This document shows, piece by piece, positions 4,881 through 64,000 of a stretch of 64,000 bases of DNA. Positions within the stretch are counted from its first letter, which is position 1; the number at the start of each line of letters is the position of its first letter. Origin of the DNA: a virus (lineage: Duplodnaviria; Heunggongvirae; Uroviricota; Caudoviricetes); the IMG/VR virus record IMGVR_UViG_2529292922_000010; one strand, written 5' to 3'. Position numbers and translations under genes: made by a program. Below the pieces are notes generated by a model. The model did no database searches, had not been told where the DNA came from, and saw only the letters and a list, made by a program, of their open reading frames with translations.

Positions 4881-5924
4881 TTATCTAACACTCGACGAAT
4901 GACTTGTGATAGCGCCGACTCCAAGCGCGTAATCAAAGAACAATCGTTGATGCATCGCCAGCCTACCGTGCGTCTTCTCCCAATTATCGCGGTCACGCTC
5001 AATATCACGCTGGCATGACTGGCACAGAGGAATAGCATAAATGTCATGCGCGCATAATCGACTATGACGAACGATATAAGGCGTAATGTGAGCGCCAGCT
5101 CCCGCAGCTCCACAGCCACAGCATGGACGGGAAGCCACAAAGTCCATGTACTCGGGCAATTTTAGCGATTGAAGTTTTGGTATCTTGAAATGCGCCATAC
5201 CTGGGTCGGAGTCAACATCCACAGGGCATACTTTTGCACGCATCGGCGCGGCGCGTTCTTCCATCATCTGAACATATGCTGTAGCGCGATCGTCATACGG
5301 GCGAATATCCGCCTCTTTCAGAGGTCCGCTATCCTGCGTTGCGGCTTTCATCTTATTTATTGATATACGGCAAACTTCTTCCGGCATCAGGTGCATCATG
5401 TTGCGCATGAAAGCCCACCAGCACAGTTCCTGAATACTTAAATCATGGCCATCTGAAAGCCCCATTTCCTGACGGGCGACATCCAGTATCCAGTTAACGC
5501 GATTATTATGCAGCGTTTCTTTCAGCTCATTAAAACCACGCATCCGGTAATGGTTATCGTGATGCCAGCACAACAACACCGCGCTATTGTCTCGTTCTGC
5601 GTGGACAATATGGTTGTCACACCAGCTACGATCTGCGGCCTGGCATTGCCCCTCTTTCCTGCGCAACCACGCCACCAGCGCGTCAATTCCACCAATACGG
5701 CGAAACAGTTCATCGCTGTTAAAAAACGGCTGCAACGCCTCATTTGTTGCCATAGTTTGCTCGGAAACAACGAGGCCGTCGTCCATGTGCTCGATTAACT
5801 CACGCGGCACCGGCTCCATAATAAATTTACGGCCAGCCTCCACCAGCTTTCTGACTTCCTGATCCACTTTGAATGTGGCGACGCCAAGCTCTTTTTGTAC
5901 AAAGGGAGTAATTACGGCTTTCAC
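4881..5924 (-). CDS. pdcA: hypothetical protein with Cys-rich C-terminal region (post-doc gene A position)
   Basis: 347-aa ORF; CCGCG...CQSCQ cysteine cluster; synteny with P1 pdcA. Confidence 0.5.
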
Positions 5925-5951
5925 ATCACACCTTTCATCACTGATTGGGCT

Positions 5952-6152
5952 TTATCTGCTGCCCGGCATTCTCTGTTTAAGCACAACCATTTCCTGACGG
6001 CATAACACAGCAATAGCAGTCCTGGCTCCAATTTGCTTACCAACCAGGTATTGCTTTACCTCGCGGCGACTCACGCCATCAAGAAGCATCTTTAACGCTT
6101 CACGGGACAATTTGTTGTATTTGCGTGCCATTAATCTACTCCGCAGAACCAT
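5952..6152 (-). CDS. pdcB: small basic protein (post-doc gene B position), start likely at MARKYNK
   Basis: about 60-aa ORF directly downstream of doc. Confidence 0.4.
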
Positions 6153-6516
6153 ACAATCTACGTAACGTGTCGGCGACAGAAGATACAGATATCTCGCCAG
6201 TCGCAGCGCCTACAGTAAGGTCTGCCAGTTCAGGTGAATCAAATACCTGCACCCCGTTACGGCGTAGAAATAACAGCGCACTGTTTAGCGCGGTACGCTT
6301 ATTGGCATCATTGAATATATGCCCTCTCGCTGTAGCCACCAGGTAGGTGGCGGAGACTTCGAAAAGGTCGGTGATCTCTTCGTAGGCAACTCTGGCCTGA
6401 ACTCTCCCGATAATGGCCTCTGCCCTACCCGGATCTGACATTCCCGGCAGGCCGCCGTAGCGGTTTATATTCGCATCATGAAGCGCAATAAGTTCTTCCG
6501 GTGATATATGCCTCAT
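6136..6516 (-). CDS. doc: Doc toxin (Fic/Doc family kinase, death on curing)
   Basis: 126 aa; sequence [17 protein letters not shown]...[16 protein letters not shown] essentially matches recalled P1 Doc, including the Fic motif HxFx(D/N)ANKR. Confidence 0.95.
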
Positions 6517-6737
6517 TATCGGTTAACCAGTTCCTTATTGGTGGATTCCAGGGTGTCAAACAGGGATGCAAATTCAGCATCCAGCGCCGCTTTTTTGTAG
6601 GCTTCGAAAGTAGCCTTGCTGACAATTACTGCTGGCTCACGGCCTCTGCGGGTGATTTCAACCTCTTCCCCGGCTTCAACATTGTTGAGCACTTCAGAAA
6701 GGTTGCCACGCGCGGTTCGGAAGTTAATGGATTGCAT
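6516..6737 (-). CDS. phd: Phd antitoxin (prevents host death)
   Basis: 73 aa from [16 protein letters not shown]; overlaps doc start by 1 nt; matches recalled P1 Phd. Confidence 0.95.
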
Positions 6738-6809
6738 AAACACCTCGTGTACTCGTTATGTGTACACAATTATAAACTTCACAGGCATAAAGCACCAGCA
6801 CTTTGCAGC

Positions 6810-7199
6810 TTAAATGACCGGACAATCATCAAATTCCCCACTTCGGGCATCATTGATGACATGAGTGATCACACCAAAAACAGCATTACTACCCGTGTAA
6901 CCATCGTCATCTACTGGTAACGCCTCTTTCTTCCCGGTGCTTAAATCCTCCAGGTGCTGGCGCGGATACTTCCTGTATCTCTTTATGCGATATTCACCCT
7001 CCATAGCGCACACAAGCAGCGAACCATCAACTGGAGTAAGCGAAGAATCAACCACCAGCAAAGCACCCTGCAATATTCCCTCACGGTGATGGCTATCAGC
7101 TGCCCGCATGAAGTAGGTTGCTGATGGATGTCTAATTATCTGCTGATCAAGAGAAATTCGGCTTTCAACATAATCCGCCGCAGGAGAAGGGAAGCCCAT
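6810..7199 (-). CDS. humD: UmuD'-like SOS mutagenesis protein HumD
   Basis: 129 aa, LexA/UmuD C-terminal peptidase-fold pattern, LexA box directly upstream, synteny next to phd. Confidence 0.8.
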   Translation of the reverse strand: MGFPSPAADYVESRISLDQQIIRHPSATYFMRAADSHHREGILQGALLVVDSSLTPVDGSLLVCAMEGEYRIKRYRKYPRQHLEDLSTGKKEALPVDDDGYTGSNAVFGVITHVINDARSGEFDDCPVI

Positions 7200-7217
7200 A
7201 GCGTTTTACCTCAAAAA

Positions 7218-7237
7218 TACTGTTTATCCGTACAGTA
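7218..7237. promoter_or_regulatory. LexA (SOS) box
   Basis: TACTGTTTATCCGTACAGTA = CTGT-N8-ACAG perfect palindromic arms, between divergent humD and the 7373 ORF. Confidence 0.75.
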
Positions 7238-7372
7238 TACATTAAAGAAGCACCTTTGGTGCAAACGCGTTATGTACATCAACCACCGCAGATGATTTTG
7301 TGCGCTTTGCTACTATTCATCACCAACGGATCAGCGTAACCTCATTGCCAATCAGTTAATAAGGAATTAGCT

Positions 7373-7945
7373 ATGCCTAATCGCATTCCTCTCGATCCTG
7401 TATTGCCCAAAAATTTTGACTGCACTCCTAACGAGAAACGCTCTAAAGCTCAGCTGGACGCCTGGTGGGACCATCCCTATGGGGTTACAGAACATGACGG
7501 GAAAATTGTTGTTTATTGTCTGAATGGTGGCGCGTGGGACCGTCCATCCGTGCTGGGTTTGGCAAATAACTATGATGAAGCCTGTGAACTTGCCGAAAGA
7601 CAGCAGGCTAGATGGGTAAAAACGCGGTCACAGCCGATATTTATGTACTCACAGGAACCTCCATTTGTGCTGGCGAGAATGCCGCAGCGACCGGATCATC
7701 AACAAGAAATTGTTGCTGAATTTTCCTCAATGGATGAGATGAATCTCTTCTCATTAAAGCAGGAAGAAAGGGATCGCGTCGAAGTGTCTCCAACTCTCGA
7801 CCACAACCGGATGAACCTGGCCCAACTCGCCTGGTACAGCAAAGAATTGGAGATGTCTATTGCCCGGCTTGAAAACGAAAAAGCCGCTATCCAAGCCCAG
7901 CATGAAGCTGTCATTGCCAGGATACGAGAAGTTCAAAACGGTTAA
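7373..7945 (+). CDS. hypothetical protein, probably LexA-regulated
   Basis: 190-aa ORF with RBS AGGAAT; divergent from humD across the LexA box. Confidence 0.5.
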   Translation: MPNRIPLDPVLPKNFDCTPNEKRSKAQLDAWWDHPYGVTEHDGKIVVYCLNGGAWDRPSVLGLANNYDEACELAERQQARWVKTRSQPIFMYSQEPPFVLARMPQRPDHQQEIVAEFSSMDEMNLFSLKQEERDRVEVSPTLDHNRMNLAQLAWYSKELEMSIARLENEKAAIQAQHEAVIARIREVQNG

Positions 7946-7951
7946 CTACCG

Positions 7952-8203
7952 CTATTTCTTTACGGCATCATCTTTCTGATATGCCGGATCGCTCCCTTTT
8001 GGCAACTGGAGGCTTAACTGCCGGTAGTGTCGTAGCCGTTCCATGAAATAGGTGCGCAGATTCTCTGGTTGCTCGCGGGCTACCTGTTCAGCTATGACAG
8101 GTATGTTCAATCGCTCTTTGTACGCCACACCGCTGGCAGCCAGATCAACGTTAACCTTATCCCGTTCTTCCTGACTTTTAGCTGCAATATTCCAGTCGCT
8201 CAT
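7952..8203 (-). CDS. hot: DNA polymerase III theta-subunit homologue Hot
   Basis: 83 aa; [32 protein letters not shown] resembles E. coli HolE. Confidence 0.8.
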
Positions 8204-8205
8204 AT

Positions 8206-8478
8206 TTAAGGCTCACATTTCCAGATGGTATTCTGAACACCCGAACCGGGCGCTAGATGAGGGTTAGCGTTCGCGCTATGCTGATATACTGCTTTAGACT
8301 TCCCATATTGCTGACAGGCTTTATCTGCGGTTTTTTGCAGGCTATCCAGGCCATACCAACCATCTGACTGTATGCTTACCTTTTCACCGTCGTTGTATTG
8401 CACCATTGCACACCCAGATATAGCCAGTATCGCGCCGACAATAACGCTTTTCCATAAAACTCTATGCAACATAGACAA
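8206..8478 (-). CDS. small lipoprotein
   Basis: signal peptide with lipobox LAISGC. Confidence 0.5.
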
Positions 8479-8782
8479 AAATCCCCTCTGTGAATTGAGG
8501 GGATTTTAGCATGGTGATCAGAGATCAGCTTTATGCAGAATTTTATCCACCAGCGATGTGATTTTTTCTGCCAGGTCATCATTACTTACCCAATCCTGGC
8601 GGGCAGCCAGAACGGGCGACAAGGCTAATATTAACTCTCGTCGTAATGATACGTTCCTTGCTACAGGCGGAATACGTGGTGCTGGTGGTGGTTTAAGCCC
8701 CTCGCTCCCTTGTATTTCTGGAGTATTCGGCTGATAGCCATTAGTTATTTTCGGCGGTATTGGACGAGGACGAAACATCGCG

Positions 8783-9148
8783 CTACCTCCTACACTCAGG
8801 GCAGGTGTTCCCTTCCGCAAAGTAGGGGAAACTGCTATCAAGTTCATCACACCATCTGCGATGCTCGTAGCACCAAAAAGCCTCCCACGGTAAACCAAAA
8901 GACTTCATCCACCGGGACACTCGATCTGGTATATCTGCTGGTGGCAGTTCTTCTGGCAATAATTTGCCTGATAATTCCCTTTCCGCCCGCGCCAGCATTC
9001 CTTTTAGACTCGCATTCTCTTTTTCAAGAATCTCTATGCGCGCCTGTAACTCAGCTTTCGTTGGCATGGCCCGCCTCATGCTTATCAGCCACCAGCGGCA
9101 ATAAAGCCCTGGCCATCTTATGAACCAATAGTGCATCAATAATGCCAA
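8783..9148 (-). CDS. hypothetical coiled-coil protein with C-terminal CPEC zinc-ribbon-like motif (start probably MPTKAEL)
   Basis: ORF; leucine heptads; CxxC at C-terminus. Confidence 0.35.
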   Translation of the reverse strand: MALLMHYWFIRWPGLYCRWWLISMRRAMPTKAELQARIEILEKENASLKGMLARAERELSGKLLPEELPPADIPDRVSRWMKSFGLPWEAFWCYEHRRWCDELDSSFPYFAEGNTCPECRR

Positions 9149-9701
9149 GCGTATGCCCCGGCTTAATGTTTAATGCCGCCTCAAGGTGACACCTTTCCAG
9201 GCCACTTTTCTCGGCTTGTTTATGATGATCTGGCGTAATAACGTCGCCCAAAACACGGCTAATTTTTTCTCGTAATTGCTGGGTGCCAGCACACTTGATC
9301 GCTGTATCGTGGATGCGGTTAACCAGTTCGCGATAAACATGCGGCTTAATTCGGATACGTTCACCGGTGACGCCCTTTCCTGGCGCTGGCACCGAACTAT
9401 CCGGAATATCCGGATAGTTGCCAGCCTCGTAAGCTACCCGCAGCCAGTGCATGAATGTTTCAGTGGACACACAACCGCAGTCCACATCGATTTTCGCGCG
9501 TTGCTGTTCCAGCCACTGCTCAAAATTCAATCTACACGTATTACTTTCATGTTGCTCTTTTTGTCTCAAGGCCAGCATCTGCTGGGCTATTTCCAATACT
9601 TCATCTGCCGTATATCCAGCACCGTGACCATACATTTCGATACGGGAAATAATCTCTGATATACGCTCTTCAGTGATTCTGGTCATTTCTTTTTGCGCCA
9701 T
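9051..9701 (-). CDS. hypothetical protein
   Basis: 216-aa ORF in leftward operon. Confidence 0.45.
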   Translation of the reverse strand: MAQKEMTRITEERISEIISRIEMYGHGAGYTADEVLEIAQQMLALRQKEQHESNTCRLNFEQWLEQQRAKIDVDCGCVSTETFMHWLRVAYEAGNYPDIPDSSVPAPGKGVTGERIRIKPHVYRELVNRIHDTAIKCAGTQQLREKISRVLGDVITPDHHKQAEKSGLERCHLEAALNIKPGHTLGIIDALLVHKMARALLPLVADKHEAGHANES

Positions 9702-58468: not shown

Positions 58469-58824
58469 TGGCCAACAATAACGAAATTGATCCTTTGCTG
58501 ACGCTGGAGTTATCCGGCGTAAAAACGTATGAGTCCCAGGAGGAGGCCTGGGGCGCTCGTTTATATGAGTGGCTAAACACTTATCAGGGTGAGGTATACG
58601 GAGATCCGTCATGGGGCAATGTTTTACCGCAGTTTAAACACGAACCGACCAACTTGTCGCATGTTCAAATTGCGGTTGAGGCAATGCTTTTGCAAAAACT
58701 GACGGTAGATTTACCCGACATACCGATTTCTGGCTTGTCAGTAGCCGAGGGAGATGCTTTTGATAAGTTGAAAATATCCATTCGTATCAGGGATATAACT
58801 ATCACACAGGACGTGGTGCTATGA
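58465..58824 (+). CDS. baseplate wedge protein (gp25/GPW-like)
   Basis: 119 aa, size/position typical; overlapping start with sit stop. Confidence 0.45.
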   Translation: MMANNNEIDPLLTLELSGVKTYESQEEAWGARLYEWLNTYQGEVYGDPSWGNVLPQFKHEPTNLSHVQIAVEAMLLQKLTVDLPDIPISGLSVAEGDAFDKLKISIRIRDITITQDVVL

Positions 58825-60254
58825 GTAAAACAACACCTACTAAAGACAGTATTCGTGCAGAGTTTGAAGAGCTTGTCGAGAAAGATTCATTCTGGTCGAA
58901 GTTTGTCGGCTCTCAATTTGTCTCGATGCTGACATTGTTTATTACCCAGATTGTCTACAGGTGCTTTCAGTATGCCGATGCGGCGCTGGCTGAAGGCTTT
59001 ATATCGACCGCGACGCGGCGTTCTTCTATCCTGGCAGCGGCAGAAACGAATAGTTACGTTGGTACCAAGCCAACACCGTCATCGGGGATGATTGAGATCA
59101 CCGCCACAAGTGAAGATGCCCCAGCGGTAATCCCCAAAAATATGCCTTTAATATCTGACGACCAGTATCCTTACATGACTATGGATGTATGCAGGTTGGT
59201 TGACGGCACCGGTACGGTAGAAGTGGCACAGTTGGAAATCCAGGAGGTGACATATACCGTTACGGCAGCCAAAGAATTTCTGGAAGTCGTGTTATCAAAG
59301 GCTCTCACTGCTGTCTGCTATAAGCTGGAAGTATTCGTGACGACCGATGGTAAGACCACGCAGTGGTCTTCCAGCACTATGTTCCGGTTAGCCGGTAGTA
59401 AAAGCCAGGTCTACGTTGAGTTTTATAAACCATCCGAGCAGTTGGGGGTTCGATTCGGTGATGGGCTAATTGGGCAAATACCGCCAGAAGGCTCGACCAT
59501 TACGCTTAAGGTATGGTGCACCAACGGCGATATAACCCTGGTTGCTGGCCAAAACCTGACGCCTGTCGATTCTGCGGCTAATTTAGCTAATTTGATTTCA
59601 GTTAAGACAACGACACCTATAACCGCAGGTACCGATGCCGAAACAACGGAGATCACACGTAACCGTGCACAATATTACCTTGCCTATGATGATCAGGTCG
59701 TATGGGGCGGGGACTATACGTATTTTCTGGTGCGTAACATCCCGGGACTGTCCTGGGTAAAGGCATGGGGCGAAGGCCAGCAAGAGAAATTAGATGGTGC
59801 TTATAATGTTCGGAATATCAATAAGATATTTATTTCAGGATGGCATCCAAACAAAAGCCAGTCAGAGCTTGAAGAAATGATCCTGGCTGCCTTTAAGAAG
59901 GTGCCGAATGAGTTGAACAAGAAATTCTCGTATAAAGAGGTCAGAAAACTCCCCTTTAAGATCACCATCACTGGGCGGATATCGGCAAGCCTGACCATTG
60001 AGAACGTGACTGATGAGCTGAAGTCGGCACTGGAAACAAAATTTGGGCGTGACTCAACTTTCTTTGATCCGAACCGTGTCGGCAAGTACATCCTAATCAA
60101 GAAAAAAGACGTTTGGGCATTTATCGAAACGCTGGGTTATTTCCGCGACTTTTATCTGGAATTTGTCGAGTGGAATGAGTCCAACGGCTTTTACGATTTC
60201 GTTTATCTGGATACAGAAAACTCCACCTTTAATATTTCGTATGAGGAGGAGTGA
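58821..60254 (+). CDS. baseplate J-like protein
   Basis: 477 aa following gp25-like gene. Confidence 0.45.
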   Translation: MSKTTPTKDSIRAEFEELVEKDSFWSKFVGSQFVSMLTLFITQIVYRCFQYADAALAEGFISTATRRSSILAAAETNSYVGTKPTPSSGMIEITATSEDAPAVIPKNMPLISDDQYPYMTMDVCRLVDGTGTVEVAQLEIQEVTYTVTAAKEFLEVVLSKALTAVCYKLEVFVTTDGKTTQWSSSTMFRLAGSKSQVYVEFYKPSEQLGVRFGDGLIGQIPPEGSTITLKVWCTNGDITLVAGQNLTPVDSAANLANLISVKTTTPITAGTDAETTEITRNRAQYYLAYDDQVVWGGDYTYFLVRNIPGLSWVKAWGEGQQEKLDGAYNVRNINKIFISGWHPNKSQSELEEMILAAFKKVPNELNKKFSYKEVRKLPFKITITGRISASLTIENVTDELKSALETKFGRDSTFFDPNRVGKYILIKKKDVWAFIETLGYFRDFYLEFVEWNESNGFYDFVYLDTENSTFNISYEEE

Positions 60255-61090
60255 TGCAGCGTTCCTGGTTTAATAACCGGCTTACATCAGCTAAGCAAAA
60301 GTCATTACTTTATAAATCATTGGCTGATTTGGTTCAGTCAATGATGGACACCTTTGTTGACCCATGGTTGGAGCGAATTACCAACCGGAAGTCTATTTTC
60401 TCCATGAGCAAGGAGGATCTGGAGACTAGGACAAATGAACTTGGCCAGTTTTTTACTATCAGAACGTCGAATTCATCTTCCGTTCCGATGTTGTTACAAC
60501 AGCGGTTTGATGAGATCCATTTTAAGGGTACTGAACGCCCTATAAACCAGACAATTTATCGCGAATTTAACGGTATATCGGTTTTATGGGATCCCATATA
60601 TGCTCCGGTGGACTTTGAACGTCATCCCTATGGCACGGTCCTGATTCCAGAAAGCACACTGGAAACCACCGGCGGCACATTCGGCGAGATGTTTCTGACT
60701 TCCAGAGGAATGATCAGTATTCCCATAAACGACCTGGCCCGGACAATGGGTATTACTGGAACGATAGATCAGTCCGCAATTACAGAAGAAATTCTCAGAA
60801 AGTTTAATCAGTTCGTAAAGCCTCTACTGCCACTGCATATAGTGTTTGATGGGCTTACGCTCTATTTGTCGGTTGTTGTAAATGAACAGGCCGACATGAT
60901 CACTTTGAATGAGATTTCTGATACCGAAAAAGCATTCTGCTGGTTTGAAACTTCGGATACAACTTCGCTTACTGAAGTTACGTCGATTAACGCCCCGATC
61001 ACTGCAACGCCGGGCGGCACTATTGTGAAAGCAACGCCTACGTTTGATCGCACCCGCGCAGATGATTTGCTGTTGGATAGCGATGCGTGA
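60251..61090 (+). CDS. baseplate protein
   Basis: 279 aa, translationally coupled. Confidence 0.4.
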   Translation: MMQRSWFNNRLTSAKQKSLLYKSLADLVQSMMDTFVDPWLERITNRKSIFSMSKEDLETRTNELGQFFTIRTSNSSSVPMLLQQRFDEIHFKGTERPINQTIYREFNGISVLWDPIYAPVDFERHPYGTVLIPESTLETTGGTFGEMFLTSRGMISIPINDLARTMGITGTIDQSAITEEILRKFNQFVKPLLPLHIVFDGLTLYLSVVVNEQADMITLNEISDTEKAFCWFETSDTTSLTEVTSINAPITATPGGTIVKATPTFDRTRADDLLLDSDA

Positions 61091-61168
61091 CAATCACCCC
61101 GTCCGCAGGGCGGGGTGACAAGTTACTTATCTTACAATGAGGCTTCACAACATTGATTAGGGAAAATC

Positions 61169-61603
61169 ATGTCTGACGTCTCAACAAACCTCTATAAGAG
61201 TCAGTTGTTGGACTATTACTATCAGCGGCGCGCTGAATCGTCCATTAACAAAGGCTCTCGATTTTTAATCAGCAAGGCCGTTTTCGGTACCAGTTCACTG
61301 GTTACTAAGAAAGGAGATGGCACTTATGAGATTGGAGAACTGCCAAAGGCTTTCGATCTGGCAGAACTGACCAGTCAATTTTGCACCATCAACCTCGTCC
61401 CAACCTACTCAGGCGGGATAATTACTGTCCGAATGGACCTTGATCAAAGTCAGTTGCAGGAAGGGAAAAACTACCCATTCAACACTCTGGTTGTTCTGGA
61501 TAACGAGAATAAGCCAATCGCCATTATTTGTGTCCAGGAAGACTCGCTGTATGTGGGCAAAACATATACCGCAGTTATGGCCATAAACTCGACTACAGCA
61601 TAA
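61169..61603 (+). CDS. tail-fibre-associated protein (P1 R position)
   Basis: 144 aa immediately upstream of tail fibre gene. Confidence 0.45.
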   Translation: MSDVSTNLYKSQLLDYYYQRRAESSINKGSRFLISKAVFGTSSLVTKKGDGTYEIGELPKAFDLAELTSQFCTINLVPTYSGGIITVRMDLDQSQLQEGKNYPFNTLVVLDNENKPIAIICVQEDSLYVGKTYTAVMAINSTTA

Positions 61604-61614
61604 GGATATGCTTG

Positions 61615-63471
61615 ATGAATGACGTTACAGTTGTTACATCGGTTACTTACCCATCACCCGAGTCGTTGGCTCTGGTGGCTGATGTGCAATACCACGAACC
61701 ATATCTGTCAGCCGCTCTAAACCGAAAATTCAGGGGAATTGTTGACCCGGGATTTTATGCTGGTTTCTTGCCTAAGCCTGGCGGTGGGATGAACCTGTTA
61801 ATCACCTCAGTGGATGGAGATAAAACCGCTGGCGCGGCGTCAGTGGATATTGGTGAATTCTACCAGGTAACTATTCAGCATCGTAAGGATATCTCTCTTG
61901 CACTTAACGCAGGCAAGAAATATGCAATTGTGCTGAAGGGAAGATACCTTCTTGGAGAAGATACCTATCAGGTTAATACCGCGTCACATATTCATGCAGC
62001 TGAATTTGTTGCCAGAACCTATACCGATTCATATCAGTTAGGTGATGGGGAACTGCTGGTTTGTACGGTGAATATCCCTGCTGGCGTATCTACCATTACT
62101 CAAGAGATGATTGATACATCCGAGCGTATCAACCGCACGATCGGCATTGATATTTCAGACTCTGTAACCAGTACCAGAAGTGATGTTGCTGCGAGTTCGC
62201 TGGCAGTTAAAAAAGCCTACGATCTGGCGAAAAGCAAGTATACGGCGCAGGATGCAACCACGACACAAAAAGGGATAGTTCAGCTCAGTAGCGACACCAA
62301 CAGCACTTCTGAAACATTAGCTGCAACTCCAAAAGCGGTTAAAGCTGCATACGATCTAGCAGCCGGAAAGGCACCATCCAGTCATACACATCCCTGGAAT
62401 CAGATCACTGGTGTGCCAACAGCTTCATTGACAGCGAAAGGCATCACTCAGCTCAGTAGTGCCACTAACAGTACGTCCGAAGTGCTGGCCGCCACACCGA
62501 AAGCTGTCAAGGCTGCATATGATTTGGCTAACGGGAAGTATACAGCCCAGGATGCAACCACGACACAAAAAGGGATAGTTCAGCTCAGTAGCGACACCAA
62601 CAGCACTTCTGAAACATTAGCTGCAACTCCAAAAGCGGTTAAAGCTGCATACGATCTAGCAGCCGGAAAGGCACCATCCAGTCATACACATCCCTGGAAT
62701 CAGATCACTGGTGTGCCAACAGCTTCATTGACAGCGAAAGGCATCACTCAGCTCAGTAGTGCCACTAACAGCACGTCTGAAGTGCTGGCCGCCACACCGA
62801 AAGCTGTCAAGGCTGCATATGATTTGGCTAATGGAAAGCAAGCGGCAGACGCTACGCTCACTGCTCTAGCGGCACTAGCTACAGCAGCAGATAAACTCCC
62901 TTATTTCACAGGTGTTGATCGTGCCGCGTTAACTGCATTGACAAGTGTTGGACGCGCCATTCTTGGTAAGACCAGTATTCAGAGCGTTCTTGATTACCTT
63001 GGTTTAGGGGAAGGCTCGGCGCTGCCCGTTGGTGTACCTGTTCCATGGCCCTCAGCCACACCGCCAACGGGGTGGCTGAAATGCAATGGTGCAGCATTTT
63101 CTTCTGAAAAGTACCCAAATCTGGCAAAGGTTTACCCTACTAATAAATTGCCGGATCTACGGGGCGAATTTATTCGCGGCTGGGATGACGGGCGGGGGAT
63201 TGACTCTGGCCGTAATTTATTATCTGCACAGAATGATGCAATTCAGAATATTGTTGGTTCTTTCGGGCGTACTCAGCTTTTTAGAGATGTACTTAGTTCA
63301 GGGCCATTTAGTCAACATGGTCAAGTATTATCTACAGGCCTAAAGGAAACGGAAATTATTGAGGGTTATGGCTCTTATAACTGGACATTCGACGCCTCTC
63401 GCTCAGTTCGTACAGCATCTGAAACCCGCCCCCGTAATATTGCATTTAATTACATCGTAAGGGCGGCATAA
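61615..63471 (+). CDS. tail fibre protein (S-like) with collar-type receptor-binding C-terminus
   Basis: ATG at 61615 in frame of ORF 61528..63471; repeated T-x-x-KGIVQLSS fibre motifs; C-terminal PWP...GWLKCNGAAFS...LPDLRGEFIRGWDDGRG...NIAFNYIVRAA. Confidence 0.85.
   Translation: MNDVTVVTSVTYPSPESLALVADVQYHEPYLSAALNRKFRGIVDPGFYAGFLPKPGGGMNLLITSVDGDKTAGAASVDIGEFYQVTIQHRKDISLALNAGKKYAIVLKGRYLLGEDTYQVNTASHIHAAEFVARTYTDSYQLGDGELLVCTVNIPAGVSTITQEMIDTSERINRTIGIDISDSVTSTRSDVAASSLAVKKAYDLAKSKYTAQDATTTQKGIVQLSSDTNSTSETLAATPKAVKAAYDLAAGKAPSSHTHPWNQITGVPTASLTAKGITQLSSATNSTSEVLAATPKAVKAAYDLANGKYTAQDATTTQKGIVQLSSDTNSTSETLAATPKAVKAAYDLAAGKAPSSHTHPWNQITGVPTASLTAKGITQLSSATNSTSEVLAATPKAVKAAYDLANGKQAADATLTALAALATAADKLPYFTGVDRAALTALTSVGRAILGKTSIQSVLDYLGLGEGSALPVGVPVPWPSATPPTGWLKCNGAAFSSEKYPNLAKVYPTNKLPDLRGEFIRGWDDGRGIDSGRNLLSAQNDAIQNIVGSFGRTQLFRDVLSSGPFSQHGQVLSTGLKETEIIEGYGSYNWTFDASRSVRTASETRPRNIAFNYIVRAA
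62236..62835 (+). repeat. 2 x 300-bp near-perfect tandem duplication inside the tail fibre gene
   Basis: 62236-62535 and 62536-62835 differ at only about 5 positions. Confidence 0.9.
62987..63012 (+). other. hix/cix-like 26-bp crossover site 1 (within tail fibre gene)
   Basis: TTCTTGATTACC-TT-GGTTTAGGGGAA versus recalled hixL TTCTTGAAAACC-AA-GGTTTTTGATAA. Confidence 0.55.
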
Positions 63472-63490
63472 AAACGTTGGTTTGGGGGAA
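63465..63490 (+). other. hix/cix-like crossover site 2
   Basis: GGCATAAAAACG-TT-GGTTTGGGGGAA spanning the stop codon of the tail fibre gene. Confidence 0.5.
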
Positions 63491-63958
63491 GGCTCAGCAT
63501 TGCCCGTTGGCGTGCCCGTTCCGTGGCCCTTAGAAACACCGCCAACGGGGTGGCTGAAATGTAACGGAGCAGCATTTTCTTCTGAAATGTATCCCAAACT
63601 GGCAAAGGCCTACCCCACCAATAAATTACCGGATTTACGGGGAGAATTTATTCGCGGCTGGGATGATGGGCGCGGGGTGGATGCGGGACGTGCTTTATTG
63701 AGCATTCAGACAGGAATGCTGGAAAAGCACCGACATATTGTTGTAGCCAATGATGGTTACGACACAAAAGATGAATGGGAGCTGGCGACAATTTTCAAAA
63801 AAACATACACACAAGGACGGGGGCTTGATGCCTCAAATACAGGAGGGAATTTGATTCCATCACCGACACTTCATTCTCGAGGGAGTATTGGTAATACTGG
63901 CGGGAGTGAAACCCGTCCACGAAATATCGCATTTAATTACATCGTAAGGGCGGCATAA
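63479..63958 (+). other. silent alternative tail-fibre receptor-binding cassette 2 (promoterless, +1 frame relative to S)
   Basis: encodes GLGEGSALPVGVPVPWP...GWLKCNGAAFS...RGEFIRGWDDGRG...RPRNIAFNYIVRAA; conserved ends, divergent middle versus S C-terminus. Confidence 0.7.
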
Positions 63959-63977
63959 AAACGTTGGTTTAGGGGAA
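63952..63977 (+). other. hix/cix-like crossover site 3
   Basis: GGCATAAAAACG-TT-GGTTTAGGGGAA. Confidence 0.5.
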
Positions 63978-64000
63978 GGCTCGGCGCTGCCCGTTGGTGT
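63966..64000 (+). other. start of alternative tail-fibre cassette 3 (truncated by window end)
   Basis: GGTTTAGGGGAAGGCTCGGCGCTGCCCGTTGGTGT identical to cassette start in S. Confidence 0.6.

What the first reader, a model, noticed from the sequence alone, without database searches (positions are those of the whole stretch)
62987..64000. Min/Cin-type multi-cassette tail-fibre variation system with directly repeated cassettes
The tail fibre gene ends in a collar-type receptor-binding domain. Immediately after its stop codon there is a second, promoterless cassette encoding a divergent domain with the same conserved start (GLGEGSALPVGVPVPWP) and end (RPRNIAFNYIVRAA), then the start of a third. 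Each junction carries a 26-bp element resembling Hin/Gin/Cin crossover sites: TTCTTGATTACC-TT-GGTTTAGGGGAA and GGCATAAAAACG-TT-GGTTTRGGGGAA, against recalled hixL TTCTTGAAAACC-AA-GGTTTTTGATAA. All three sites visible here share the same core orientation, so the partner sites in inverted orientation and the serine invertase should lie just beyond the window. This differs from the simple two-state C-segment of P1 and resembles the multiple-inversion Min region of plasmid p15B. The cassettes contain no chaperone gene between them.
Basis: partly seen in the sequence, partly recalled or inferred. Interest (0 to 1): 0.8.

Follow-up and report, generated by a model that had tools for sequence, protein, structure and literature searches.

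The report
Min-type shuffling tail-fibre tip cassettes
The end of this window is the start of a known kind of DNA-shuffling switch, first described in plasmid p15B, in which a P1-like phage-plasmid swaps the receptor-binding tip of its tail fibre among many stored cassettes; it is real but ordinary.

Summary
Three 26-bp sites (12-TT-12) lie at 62987, 63465 and 63952. All are on the + strand, and none is expected by chance. Each sits at the start of a promoterless Collar-domain cassette that follows the constant part of P1 gene S.

The window is bases 1-64000 of a 68,145-bp draft contig. Its own continuation carries five more direct sites, then a central segment with a tail-fibre assembly gene, then an inverted site at 67962 and inverted cassettes, and then it ends. 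A twin contig with the identical S protein, and nine related plasmid records (eight distinct arrays), finish the array with a fixed outer half-site and a 190-aa serine invertase. That invertase is 74% identical to P1 Cin.

The same cassettes occupy different positions and orientations in different plasmids, always between the same two fixed half-sites. A polar-cassette inversion model gives 240 configurations for six sites, the published number for p15B Min. The invertase side of the relatives matches the p15B coordinates noted in the P1 record, with identical spacings.

This is a further, larger member of the p15B Min type. The region is not shown to be active in this strain. The invertase is not on this contig, and four cassettes there carry frameshifts.

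The parts
61120..61138 (+). P1 late promoter LPs of the R-S tail-fibre operon
   Evidence: Window 61100-61169 is 100% identical over 70 nt to the P1 stretch that holds the annotated LPs promoter.
61169..61603 (+). Gene R (tail-fibre structure or assembly protein, 144 aa)
   Evidence: ORF. DNA 94% identical to P1/P7 R-S. Pfam Phage_P1_tail_fiber_R on the same gene in L012/L013.
61615..63471 (+). Gene S as currently assembled: constant part Sc fused in frame to cassette A (618 aa)
   Evidence: Five Phage_fiber_2 repeats plus a Collar domain. The 5' part is 94% identical to P1 Sc. The exact protein is encoded on two public contigs.
62236..62838 (+). 300-bp tandem repeat (2.0 copies, 98% match) inside Sc
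   Evidence: Tandem Repeats Finder. It corresponds to the annotated repeated elements in P1 Sc.
62987..63012 (+). Crossover site 1 (TTCTTGATTACC-TT-GGTTTAGGGGAA), the fixed Sc-side boundary of the invertible region
   Evidence: The left half is constant in 9 of 10 related arrays with S on + (TTCTTAATTACC in L005) and in the twin L012. It is positionally homologous to the P1 cix site at the Sc/Sv junction.
63001..63471 (+). Cassette A (156 aa Collar-type tip), currently expressed as the C-terminus of S
   Evidence: Translation. The same cassette is found inverted and next to the invertase in L004 and L005, and at internal positions in L003 and L006.
63465..63490 (+). Crossover site 2 (GGCATAAAAACG-TT-GGTTTGGGGGAA). 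Its left half contains the stop codon of cassette A.
63479..63958 (+). Cassette B (159 aa Collar-type tip), silent: it has no promoter and no N-terminal fibre shaft
   Evidence: Collar domain E=6e-15. Its 90% cluster has 462 members, all named phage tail / tail fiber protein. It is found inverted in L004 and L005 and also in a P2-like chromosomal prophage, L007.
63952..63977 (+). Crossover site 3 (GGCATAAAAACG-TT-GGTTTAGGGGAA)
63966..64000 (+). Start of the third cassette. On the parent contig it is a second copy of A (A'), 98.5% identical with a 1-nt deletion, which frameshifts it.
   Evidence: Parent contig L013.

Best explanation
The region is the Sc-proximal part of a p15B-Min-type multiple DNA inversion system in a P1-like phage-plasmid.

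The late promoter LPs drives R and S. The constant shaft of S ends at a 26-bp crossover site. Whichever cassette lies to the right of that site supplies the Collar-type receptor-binding tip.

Each cassette is a polar module. It consists of a right half-site (GGTTTRGGGGAA, which encodes GLGE), a conserved collar, a variable tip, a conserved C-terminal strand, the stop codon and a left half-site (…TAAAAACG).

Cassettes left of a central segment all point rightwards, which is why they appear as direct repeats. Cassettes right of it point leftwards. The central segment holds two convergent cassettes and one U-like assembly gene.

A Din-family serine invertase (a Min orthologue) is encoded just outside the far boundary. 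Its 5' coding region contains a Fis-type enhancer. The invertase exchanges strands at the TT core only between inverted sites. Successive overlapping inversions can therefore bring any cassette to Sc while the direct repeats are not deleted. The outcome is a phage population with mixed host specificities.

Shown here: the sites, the cassette structure, the inverted sites on the parent contig, the invertase in relatives, and cassette permutation between plasmids.

Inferred: catalysis, Fis dependence, the effect on host range, and activity in this particular strain.
For: - Three direct sites against none expected by chance.
- The TT core and the position in S match the annotated P1 crossover sites.
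- The parent contig continues with five more + sites, the central segment D / U(-) / I(-), a - site at 67962 and the inverted 3' end of J.
- The twin L012, with the identical S protein, reads >A >J >B >K >L >E >D <I <G followed by a 190-aa Resolvase+HTH_7 protein.
- Eight distinct related plasmid arrays (nine records; L008 and L009 have the same layout) have 6-10 sites in the same layout.
- Cassettes A, B, E, G, J, K and L change position and orientation between plasmids. The outer half-sites TTCTTGATTACC and AAGACTAAAACG stay fixed, and left-half variants travel with the preceding cassette.
- The invertase is 74% identical to P1 Cin. Its best solved-structure matches are two chains deposited as DNA-invertase (4m6f, 3uj3; Gin of Mu from my own knowledge), E about 1e-92.
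- The stretch equivalent to the annotated P1 enhancer is 58/72 identical, against 67% for the whole gene.
- In the relatives, the spacings enhancer to cin remnant (684 bp) and cin remnant to lydC (336 bp), and the identities (83%, 89.7%, 84.4%), equal those the P1 record gives for p15B X62121.
- Simulation of the model gives 240 configurations and 6 alternative tips for 6 sites. A held paper quotes 240 forms for p15B Min.
- Inversion at very similar sites with Collar-domain fibres was seen directly in PacBio reads of E. coli EC958 prophages.
Against: - The invertase gene and the far boundary site are not on the parent contig, so they are not shown for this element itself.
- Four of the eight direct cassettes on that contig carry indels that break the frame (1 nt in A', K' and G'; four gap positions in J'). 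A and J each occur twice there. This may be decay, or a draft assembly threaded through mixed isomers.
- No read-level data were available, so inversion within this strain is not demonstrated.
- The two records of strain C21 have the same layout.
- One relative (L004) has a truncated recombinase gene.
Confidence: 0.9

Rival explanations
1. The array is real but inert in this element. It would be a decaying store of cassette remnants whose invertase is lost or broken, leaving the fibre locked on cassette A.
For: - On the parent contig, cassettes A', J', K' and G' are frameshifted.
- The invertase is not on the contig.
- L004 has a truncated recombinase.
- A published survey describes P1-like plasmids with a truncated or rearranged cin and an altered C segment.
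Against: - The expressed cassette A and cassettes B, E, D and I are intact.
- The twin L012, with the identical S protein, has nine intact cassettes and an intact invertase.
- The contig ends inside the repeated array, as expected of a draft assembly, so the absence of the gene says nothing.
- The EC958 authors inferred that another enzyme acted in trans at a prophage whose own invertase is truncated.
Confidence: 0.08
2. Part of the long direct array on this draft contig is an assembly artefact. Reads from several coexisting isomers would have been threaded into one path, so the third cassette (A') and some later ones are not at those places in any single molecule.
For: - A occurs twice. J occurs in both orientations. 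The extra copies carry indels of one to a few nt.
- In L012 and six of the eight complete related arrays each cassette type occurs once. L004 has a frameshifted second copy of I, and L010 is too degraded to label.
- In 5 of 9 related records the cassette joined to Sc is garbled and of abnormal length.
- The EC958 paper warns that alternative-isomer contigs can create artefactual duplications.
Against: - A' differs from A by several substitutions as well as the deletion (98.5% against 99.6% to the L012 copy). It is therefore not simply the same reads used twice.
- The A-B adjacency inside the window is also found in L001, L004 and L005.
- This rival affects only the order of cassettes. If true, it would be evidence for active inversion.
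Confidence: 0.3
3. Cassette exchange occurs by RecA-dependent homologous recombination or gene conversion between the ~200-bp conserved cassette heads, not by site-specific inversion.
For: Cassette heads are 88-96% identical over about 200 bp. Cassette number varies between plasmids, from 6 to 10 sites, which unequal homologous exchange could produce.
Against: - Whole cassettes move as units bounded exactly by the half-sites.
- Orientation is strictly tied to the side of the central segment.
- The outer half-sites never move.
- A dedicated serine invertase with a conserved enhancer stretch is always adjacent.
Confidence: 0.02

Closest known systems
Min multiple inversion system of E. coli 15T- plasmid p15B (Sandmeier, Iida, Arber 1990, 1992; Iida et al. 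1990)
   Same: - A P1-related IncY-type phage-plasmid backbone.
- Sc of gene S ending at a 26-bp site, with several overlapping invertible segments carrying alternative 3' ends of S.
- A Din-family serine invertase at the far end, transcribed away from the segment, followed by a remnant of the cin 5' end.
- The relatives of this window match the p15B coordinates quoted in the P1 record, with identical spacing and identity.
- The architecture reproduces the 240 isomers.
   Different: p15B is reported with 240 isomers, which the model gives for six sites. From memory, six mix sites and a 3.5-kb region were reported. Here the parent contig shows at least ten sites (nine located, plus the site that must precede the inverted J), and relatives show 6-10. 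That means more alternative tips and, by the same model, 1,440 to about 7x10^5 configurations. I could not read the p15B sequence itself, so cassette-by-cassette identity is untested.
Cin / C-segment of phage P1 (and P7)
   Same: The same operon (LPs, R, S), the same position of the crossover site in S, the same TT core and nearly the same right half-site. The invertase is 74% identical, and the enhancer lies in the 5' part of the invertase gene.
   Different: P1 has two sites and two long Sv-U alternatives. Its cin gene faces the segment. Here there are many short Collar-type cassettes, only one U-like gene, and the invertase is in the opposite orientation.
Gin/G segment of Mu, Pin/P segment of e14, Hin/H segment of Salmonella (Din family)
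   Same: Serine invertases of about 190 aa with Resolvase and HTH_7 domains. The best solved-structure matches are two chains deposited as DNA-invertase (4m6f, 3uj3; Gin of Mu from my own knowledge). They use 26-bp 12-2-12 sites and carry out inversion only.
   Different: Those are single two-state switches. Hin switches a promoter rather than a coding 3' end.
Invertible Collar-domain tail-fibre regions of E. coli EC958 prophages (Phi2 in particular)
   Same: Phi2 sites TCCTCAATTACC-TT-GGTTTAGGAGAA and GAGAGATAAACG-TT-GGTTTGGGGGAA are close to the sites here. The fibres have the same Phage_fiber_2 plus Collar organisation. Inversion was observed in PacBio reads.
   Different: Those are two-site switches in chromosomal prophages. 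A four-site version with cassettes B, I and L occurs in a P2-like prophage of strain EC9 (L007).
R64 shufflon (Rci)
   Same: It works in the same way: several overlapping inversions choose among alternative C-termini of one surface protein.
   Different: It uses a tyrosine recombinase and different, asymmetric sfx sites, and its target is the pilus adhesin PilV. The system here is not a member of that family.

Membership tests
Din-family serine-invertase tail-fibre switch (Cin/Gin/Pin/Min) | 26-bp crossover sites: two imperfectly symmetric 12-bp halves around a 2-bp core that is identical in all sites | tested here: met
   Three sites in the window and nine located on the parent contig all have core TT. 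The annotated P1 sites have the same core and a near-identical right half.
Din-family serine-invertase tail-fibre switch (Cin/Gin/Pin/Min) | The site lies in frame at the junction of the constant and variable parts of the fibre gene | tested here: met
   S reads ...SVLDYLGLGEGS... through site 1. P1 S reads ...VIQYLGLRELG... through its annotated crossover site.
Din-family serine-invertase tail-fibre switch (Cin/Gin/Pin/Min) | Partner sites in inverted orientation on the same molecule | tested here: met
   There are none inside the window. The parent contig has one at 67962 (- strand), followed by the inverted J cassette.
Din-family serine-invertase tail-fibre switch (Cin/Gin/Pin/Min) | Adjacent gene for a ~190-aa serine recombinase (Resolvase catalytic domain plus C-terminal HTH) | tested here: inconclusive
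   It is absent from the window (tblastn, best E 0.83) and from the parent contig, which ends at 68145. It is present directly after the last site in the twin L012 and in nine related plasmid records (truncated in L004).
Din-family serine-invertase tail-fibre switch (Cin/Gin/Pin/Min) | Fis-dependent recombinational enhancer within the 5' part of the invertase gene | not testable with these tools
   Only sequence conservation could be tested, and only in relatives: 58/72 identity to the annotated P1 enhancer, against 67% for the whole gene. Fis binding needs an experiment.
p15B Min type (multiple inversion) as opposed to the two-state Cin type | More than two sites, giving overlapping invertible segments and more than two alternative 3' ends | tested here: met
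   Three sites in the window, at least ten on the parent contig (nine located plus one implied) and 6-10 in relatives.
p15B Min type (multiple inversion) as opposed to the two-state Cin type | Collinearity with the p15B min region (GenBank X62121) | tested here: met
   This test is indirect. The P1 record gives p15B positions 6463-6533 (83%), 7147-7408 (89%) and 7483-7638 (84%). The same P1 stretches hit L003 and L001 at 83.1%, 89.7% and 84.4%, with identical offsets of 684 and 336 bp. It was tested on relatives, not on the window's own far end, and p15B itself could not be read.
p15B Min type (multiple inversion) as opposed to the two-state Cin type | The segments actually invert, giving a mixed population of isomers | tested here: inconclusive
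   Between plasmids, the same cassettes occupy different positions and orientations between fixed ends. Within one strain there are no reads to examine. The two C21 records have the same layout. Duplicated A and J on the draft contig are suggestive only.
Shufflon (R64 type) | Tyrosine recombinase Rci acting on sfx sites | tested here: not met
   The associated recombinase is of the serine type (Resolvase PF00239 plus HTH_7).

The most novel reading that the evidence does not exclude
Present-day P1-like phage-plasmids carry Min-type arrays much larger than the six-site p15B prototype: at least ten sites here, and about ten cassette types across the ten arrays mapped. They draw on a cassette pool shared with P2-like chromosomal prophages, since cassettes B, I and L recur there at 90% or more protein identity. 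Arrays would then grow, shrink and exchange tips across unrelated phage types within one host. Only one chaperone gene is present, and its expression depends on the orientation of the central segment. That would imply that most Collar-type tips fold without it.
Probability: 0.35. Interest if true: 0.35.

Novelty: new member of a known kind. Interest (0 to 1): 0.17.

Why it matters
It matters little for discovery, because the mechanism and the prototype (p15B Min) have been known since 1990. It has three practical uses.

- These arrays are very common. 1,018 of 5,426 complete E. coli genomes hold a match to this 1.2-kb stretch.
- They are poorly annotated, as strings of "phage tail protein" genes, often marked frameshifted.
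- They can break or scramble assemblies. This contig ends inside the array.

Recognising the module structure allows correct annotation. It also allows the number of host-range states of P1-like phage-plasmids to be predicted; many of these plasmids carry resistance genes such as mcr-1.

Tried and rejected
- I looked for a complete record identical to the window in the phage, plasmid and complete E. coli collections. None exists; the best backbone match is 99.0%. The exact-protein look-up then found the parent contig.
- I compared two records of strain C21, hoping for different isomers of one strain. They have the same layout and are probably the same sequence.
- I tried to read the original p15B papers (PMC206102, PMC53420) and the Johnson 2015 review (PMC4384473). 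None is held. The p15B facts therefore rest on the P1 record's notes, one secondary citation and memory.
- Several literature searches for a modern description of large cassette arrays in P1-like phage-plasmids found nothing relevant. Surveys only call this region 'highly variable'.
- I searched the window for an invertase or a U-like gene and found none.
- I rejected the Rci-type shufflon reading because the recombinase is of the serine type. I rejected a two-state Cin switch because there are too many sites.
Full report
**What is in the sequence**

S (61615-63471, + strand) reads in frame through a 26-bp element at 62987-63012, TTCTTGATTACC-TT-GGTTTAGGGGAA. It ends in ...RPRNIAFNYIVRAA, stop.

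The stop codon lies inside a second element at 63465-63490, GGCATAAAAACG-TT-GGTTTGGGGGAA. This opens a second reading frame of 159 codons with the same first ~70 and last ~16 residues and a different middle; the two cassettes are 55% identical overall. A third element at 63952-63977 opens a third frame, of which 37 nt are visible.

The 19-mer common to the three elements occurs three times in 64 kb, always on the + strand. It occurs zero times in 100 shuffles.

Pfam finds five Phage_fiber_2 repeats and a Collar domain in S, and a Collar domain in the second cassette. No sigma-70-like promoter is found anywhere in 61000-64000.

**What the window is**

The R gene and the first 843 nt of the query are 94% identical to phages P1 and P7. 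Hundreds of E. coli plasmids of about 95 kb match 20 kb of the window at 98-99%. The 70 nt upstream of R are 100% identical to the P1 stretch that contains the annotated late promoter LPs. The window therefore comes from a P1-like phage-plasmid, and the finding lies at the 3' end of its R-S tail-fibre operon.

**Comparison with the reference switch**

In the P1 record the crossover points of the Cin system are annotated to the nucleotide. Read from that record, the two sites are TTATCCAATACC-TT-GGTTTAAGAGAA at the Sc/Sv junction and CAATCCTAAACC-TT-GGTTTAAGAGAA on the cin side. Site 1 of the window has the same TT core, a right half that differs at two positions, and the same place in the protein (...YLGL...). 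This is a tested homology, not a recalled resemblance.

**The window's own continuation**

An exact-sequence look-up of the 618-aa S protein found two public contigs. One is AIEX01000036.1 (assembly GCA_000249095.2, 68,145 bp). It carries S at contig position 61615 and is identical to the window over the whole 12,386-nt overlap. The window is therefore bases 1-64000 of that contig, and 4,145 further bases can be read.

These bases contain five more sites in the + orientation, with cores at 64441, 64914, 65428, 65941 and 66381. Next comes a 1,581-bp central segment, and then a site in the - orientation at 67962.

By DNA comparison the order is:

>A >B >A' >J' >E >K' >G' >D, then a Caudo_TAP (U-like) gene on the - strand (66889-67500), then <I (67500-67958), then the last 183 nt of an inverted J. 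There the contig stops.

The predicted inverted partner sites thus exist on the same molecule, about 4 kb past the window. The invertase gene is not on this contig.

**Relatives that show the whole array**

The second contig (L012, 94.5 kb) encodes the identical S protein. It reads >A >J >B >K >L >E >D <I <G. This is followed by the half-site AAGACTAAAACG and, 68 bp later, a 190-aa protein with Resolvase and HTH_7 domains.

Eight distinct complete related plasmid arrays show the same plan (nine records were fetched; L008 and L009, both from strain C21, have the same layout). They have 6-10 sites:
- a block of rightward cassettes;
- a central segment with two convergent cassettes and one Caudo_TAP gene directly after cassette I;
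- a block of leftward cassettes;
- the fixed half-site and the recombinase.

That recombinase is 74% identical to P1 Cin. Its best matches among solved structures are two chains deposited as DNA-invertase, E about 1e-92; from my own knowledge these are the Gin invertase of Mu. The stretch that corresponds to the annotated P1 enhancer (cin nt 19-90) is 58/72 identical, against 67% for the whole gene.

**Evidence that the cassettes move by site-specific inversion**

The cassette orders are:

| Locus | Order |
|---|---|
| L001 | >A >B >C <D <E <F <G |
| L003 | >H >B >G >E >I <D <A <J <K <L |
| L004 | >M >J >E >L >D <I <N <B <A |
| L005 | >J >E >G >D <I <B <A |
| L006 | >E >B >G >A >I <D <J <K |

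Four points follow from these orders.
- The pair A-B, which is joined to Sc in the window, lies at the opposite end and inverted in L004 (99.2% DNA identity) and in L005. One inversion across the whole region would produce this.
- The outer half-sites never move: TTCTTGATTACC in nine of the ten arrays mapped (TTCTTAATTACC in L005) and in the twin L012, and AAGACTAAAACG in all nine plasmid arrays (AAGACGAAAACG in the prophage L007).
- Rare left-half variants (CACATAAAAACG after K, GGCATGAAAACG after L) travel with the preceding cassette.
- Orientation is strictly determined by the side of the central segment.

Cassettes therefore behave as polar modules exchanged at or next to the TT core.

**Relation to p15B Min**

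I could not read the p15B sequence or the original papers. Two indirect tests agree.

First, the P1 record notes which P1 stretches match p15B (X62121) and where: the enhancer stretch at nt 6463-6533 (83%), the cin 5' end and promoter at 7147-7408 (89%), and part of lydC at 7483-7638 (84%). The same P1 stretches hit L003 and L001 at 83.1%, 89.7% and 84.4%. The offsets of 684 and 336 bp are exactly the p15B spacings. The invertase side of these plasmids is therefore collinear with p15B, including the relic of a cin 5' end behind the active gene.

Second, I simulated the polar-cassette model, allowing inversion only between oppositely oriented sites. Six sites give 240 reachable configurations and six alternative tips. 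A held paper quotes 240 isomeric forms for p15B Min, citing Sandmeier et al. 1990. The same model gives 1,440 configurations for seven sites and 10,080 for eight.

From memory, p15B has six mix sites in a 3.5-kb region. Four cassettes of about 480 bp plus a 1,581-bp central segment would be 3.5 kb.

**How it most likely works**

Late in infection, LPs drives R, S and whatever follows. The fibre shaft (Sc) is completed by the cassette currently to the right of site 1, which is cassette A here. The remaining cassettes are silent because they lack a start and a shaft.

The Min-like invertase, with the host factor Fis bound at the enhancer in its own gene, pairs two inverted sites and exchanges strands at the TT core. 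Sites in direct repeat are not recombined. This is established for the Din family but was not tested here.

Successive overlapping inversions can move any cassette to Sc. For example, B must first be carried to the right-hand block and then brought back by an inversion that uses site 1. The result is a lysate in which individual particles carry different receptor-binding tips.

Read-level inversion at very similar sites, in fibres with the same domain layout, has been documented for E. coli EC958 prophages.

**Caveats**

- The invertase and the far boundary are not shown for this element.
- Four cassettes on the parent contig carry indels that break the frame: 1 nt in A', K' and G', and four gap positions in J'.
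- A and J occur twice on that contig, J in both orientations. In the twin L012 and in six of the eight complete related arrays each cassette type occurs once. L004 carries a frameshifted second copy of I, and L010 is too degraded to label. The draft contig may therefore be a path threaded through a mixture of isomers, which would itself indicate activity, or the array may be partly decayed. I cannot tell which without reads.
- In five of the nine related plasmid records the cassette joined to Sc is garbled and of abnormal length, which raises the same question.

**Verdict**

The system is a further and larger member of a type described in 1990-92. Its cassettes are common: 1,018 of 5,426 complete E. 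coli genomes match the 1.2-kb stretch, on plasmids and in chromosomal prophages. A four-site version occurs in a P2-like prophage. Interest is low. The value is mainly for annotation and for interpreting assemblies.

Noticed in passing
window 62236-62838: A 300-bp tandem repeat (2.0 copies, 98% match) lies inside the constant part of S. The S coding sequences of related plasmids range from about 1.5 to 3.2 kb, so repeat copy number, and presumably fibre length, varies between elements.
   Followed up: partly
parent contig L013, contig coordinates 63965-66381 and 67963-68145: Cassettes A and J each occur twice, J in both orientations. The extra copies, and also K' and G', carry frame-breaking indels of one to a few nt. 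This is either real duplication and decay or a draft assembly threaded through coexisting isomers.
   Followed up: partly
L003 8200-8864, L008, L010, L011, L004 (first cassette after Sc): In five of the nine related plasmid records the cassette fused to Sc is frameshifted. Its segment length is abnormal (664, 579, 540, 513 or 505 bp, against the regular 439-514). This is possibly a consensus artefact at the most heterogeneous junction.
   Followed up: no
L003 10767-11378; parent contig 66889-67500 (- strand): There is only one tail-fibre assembly gene (Caudo_TAP) per array, always directly after cassette I in the central segment. In about half of the observed states, including the window's own, it is antisense to the S operon. 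This raises the question of whether the Collar-type tips need it.
   Followed up: no
L007 (E. coli EC9 chromosome, P2-like prophage), locus 4990-9267: This is a four-site version of the same switch (>W >B <I <L plus a 199-aa recombinase). Its cassettes B, I and L are 90% or more identical in protein to those of the P1-like plasmids. The module is shared between unrelated phage types.
   Followed up: partly
L001 14121-14382; L003 14564-14825: A 262-bp relic of a cin-like 5' end with its promoter (89.7% identical to P1) lies behind the active invertase gene. It contains a second copy of the enhancer stretch (89.6% over 67 nt).
   Followed up: partly
window 58821-60254 and the homologous genes in L001, L003, L005, L006: RefSeq names the homologue of the P1 baseplate protein BplA 'bleomycin hydrolase' in many records and 'baseplate J/gp47 family protein' in others. 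The first name looks like an annotation error.
   Followed up: no
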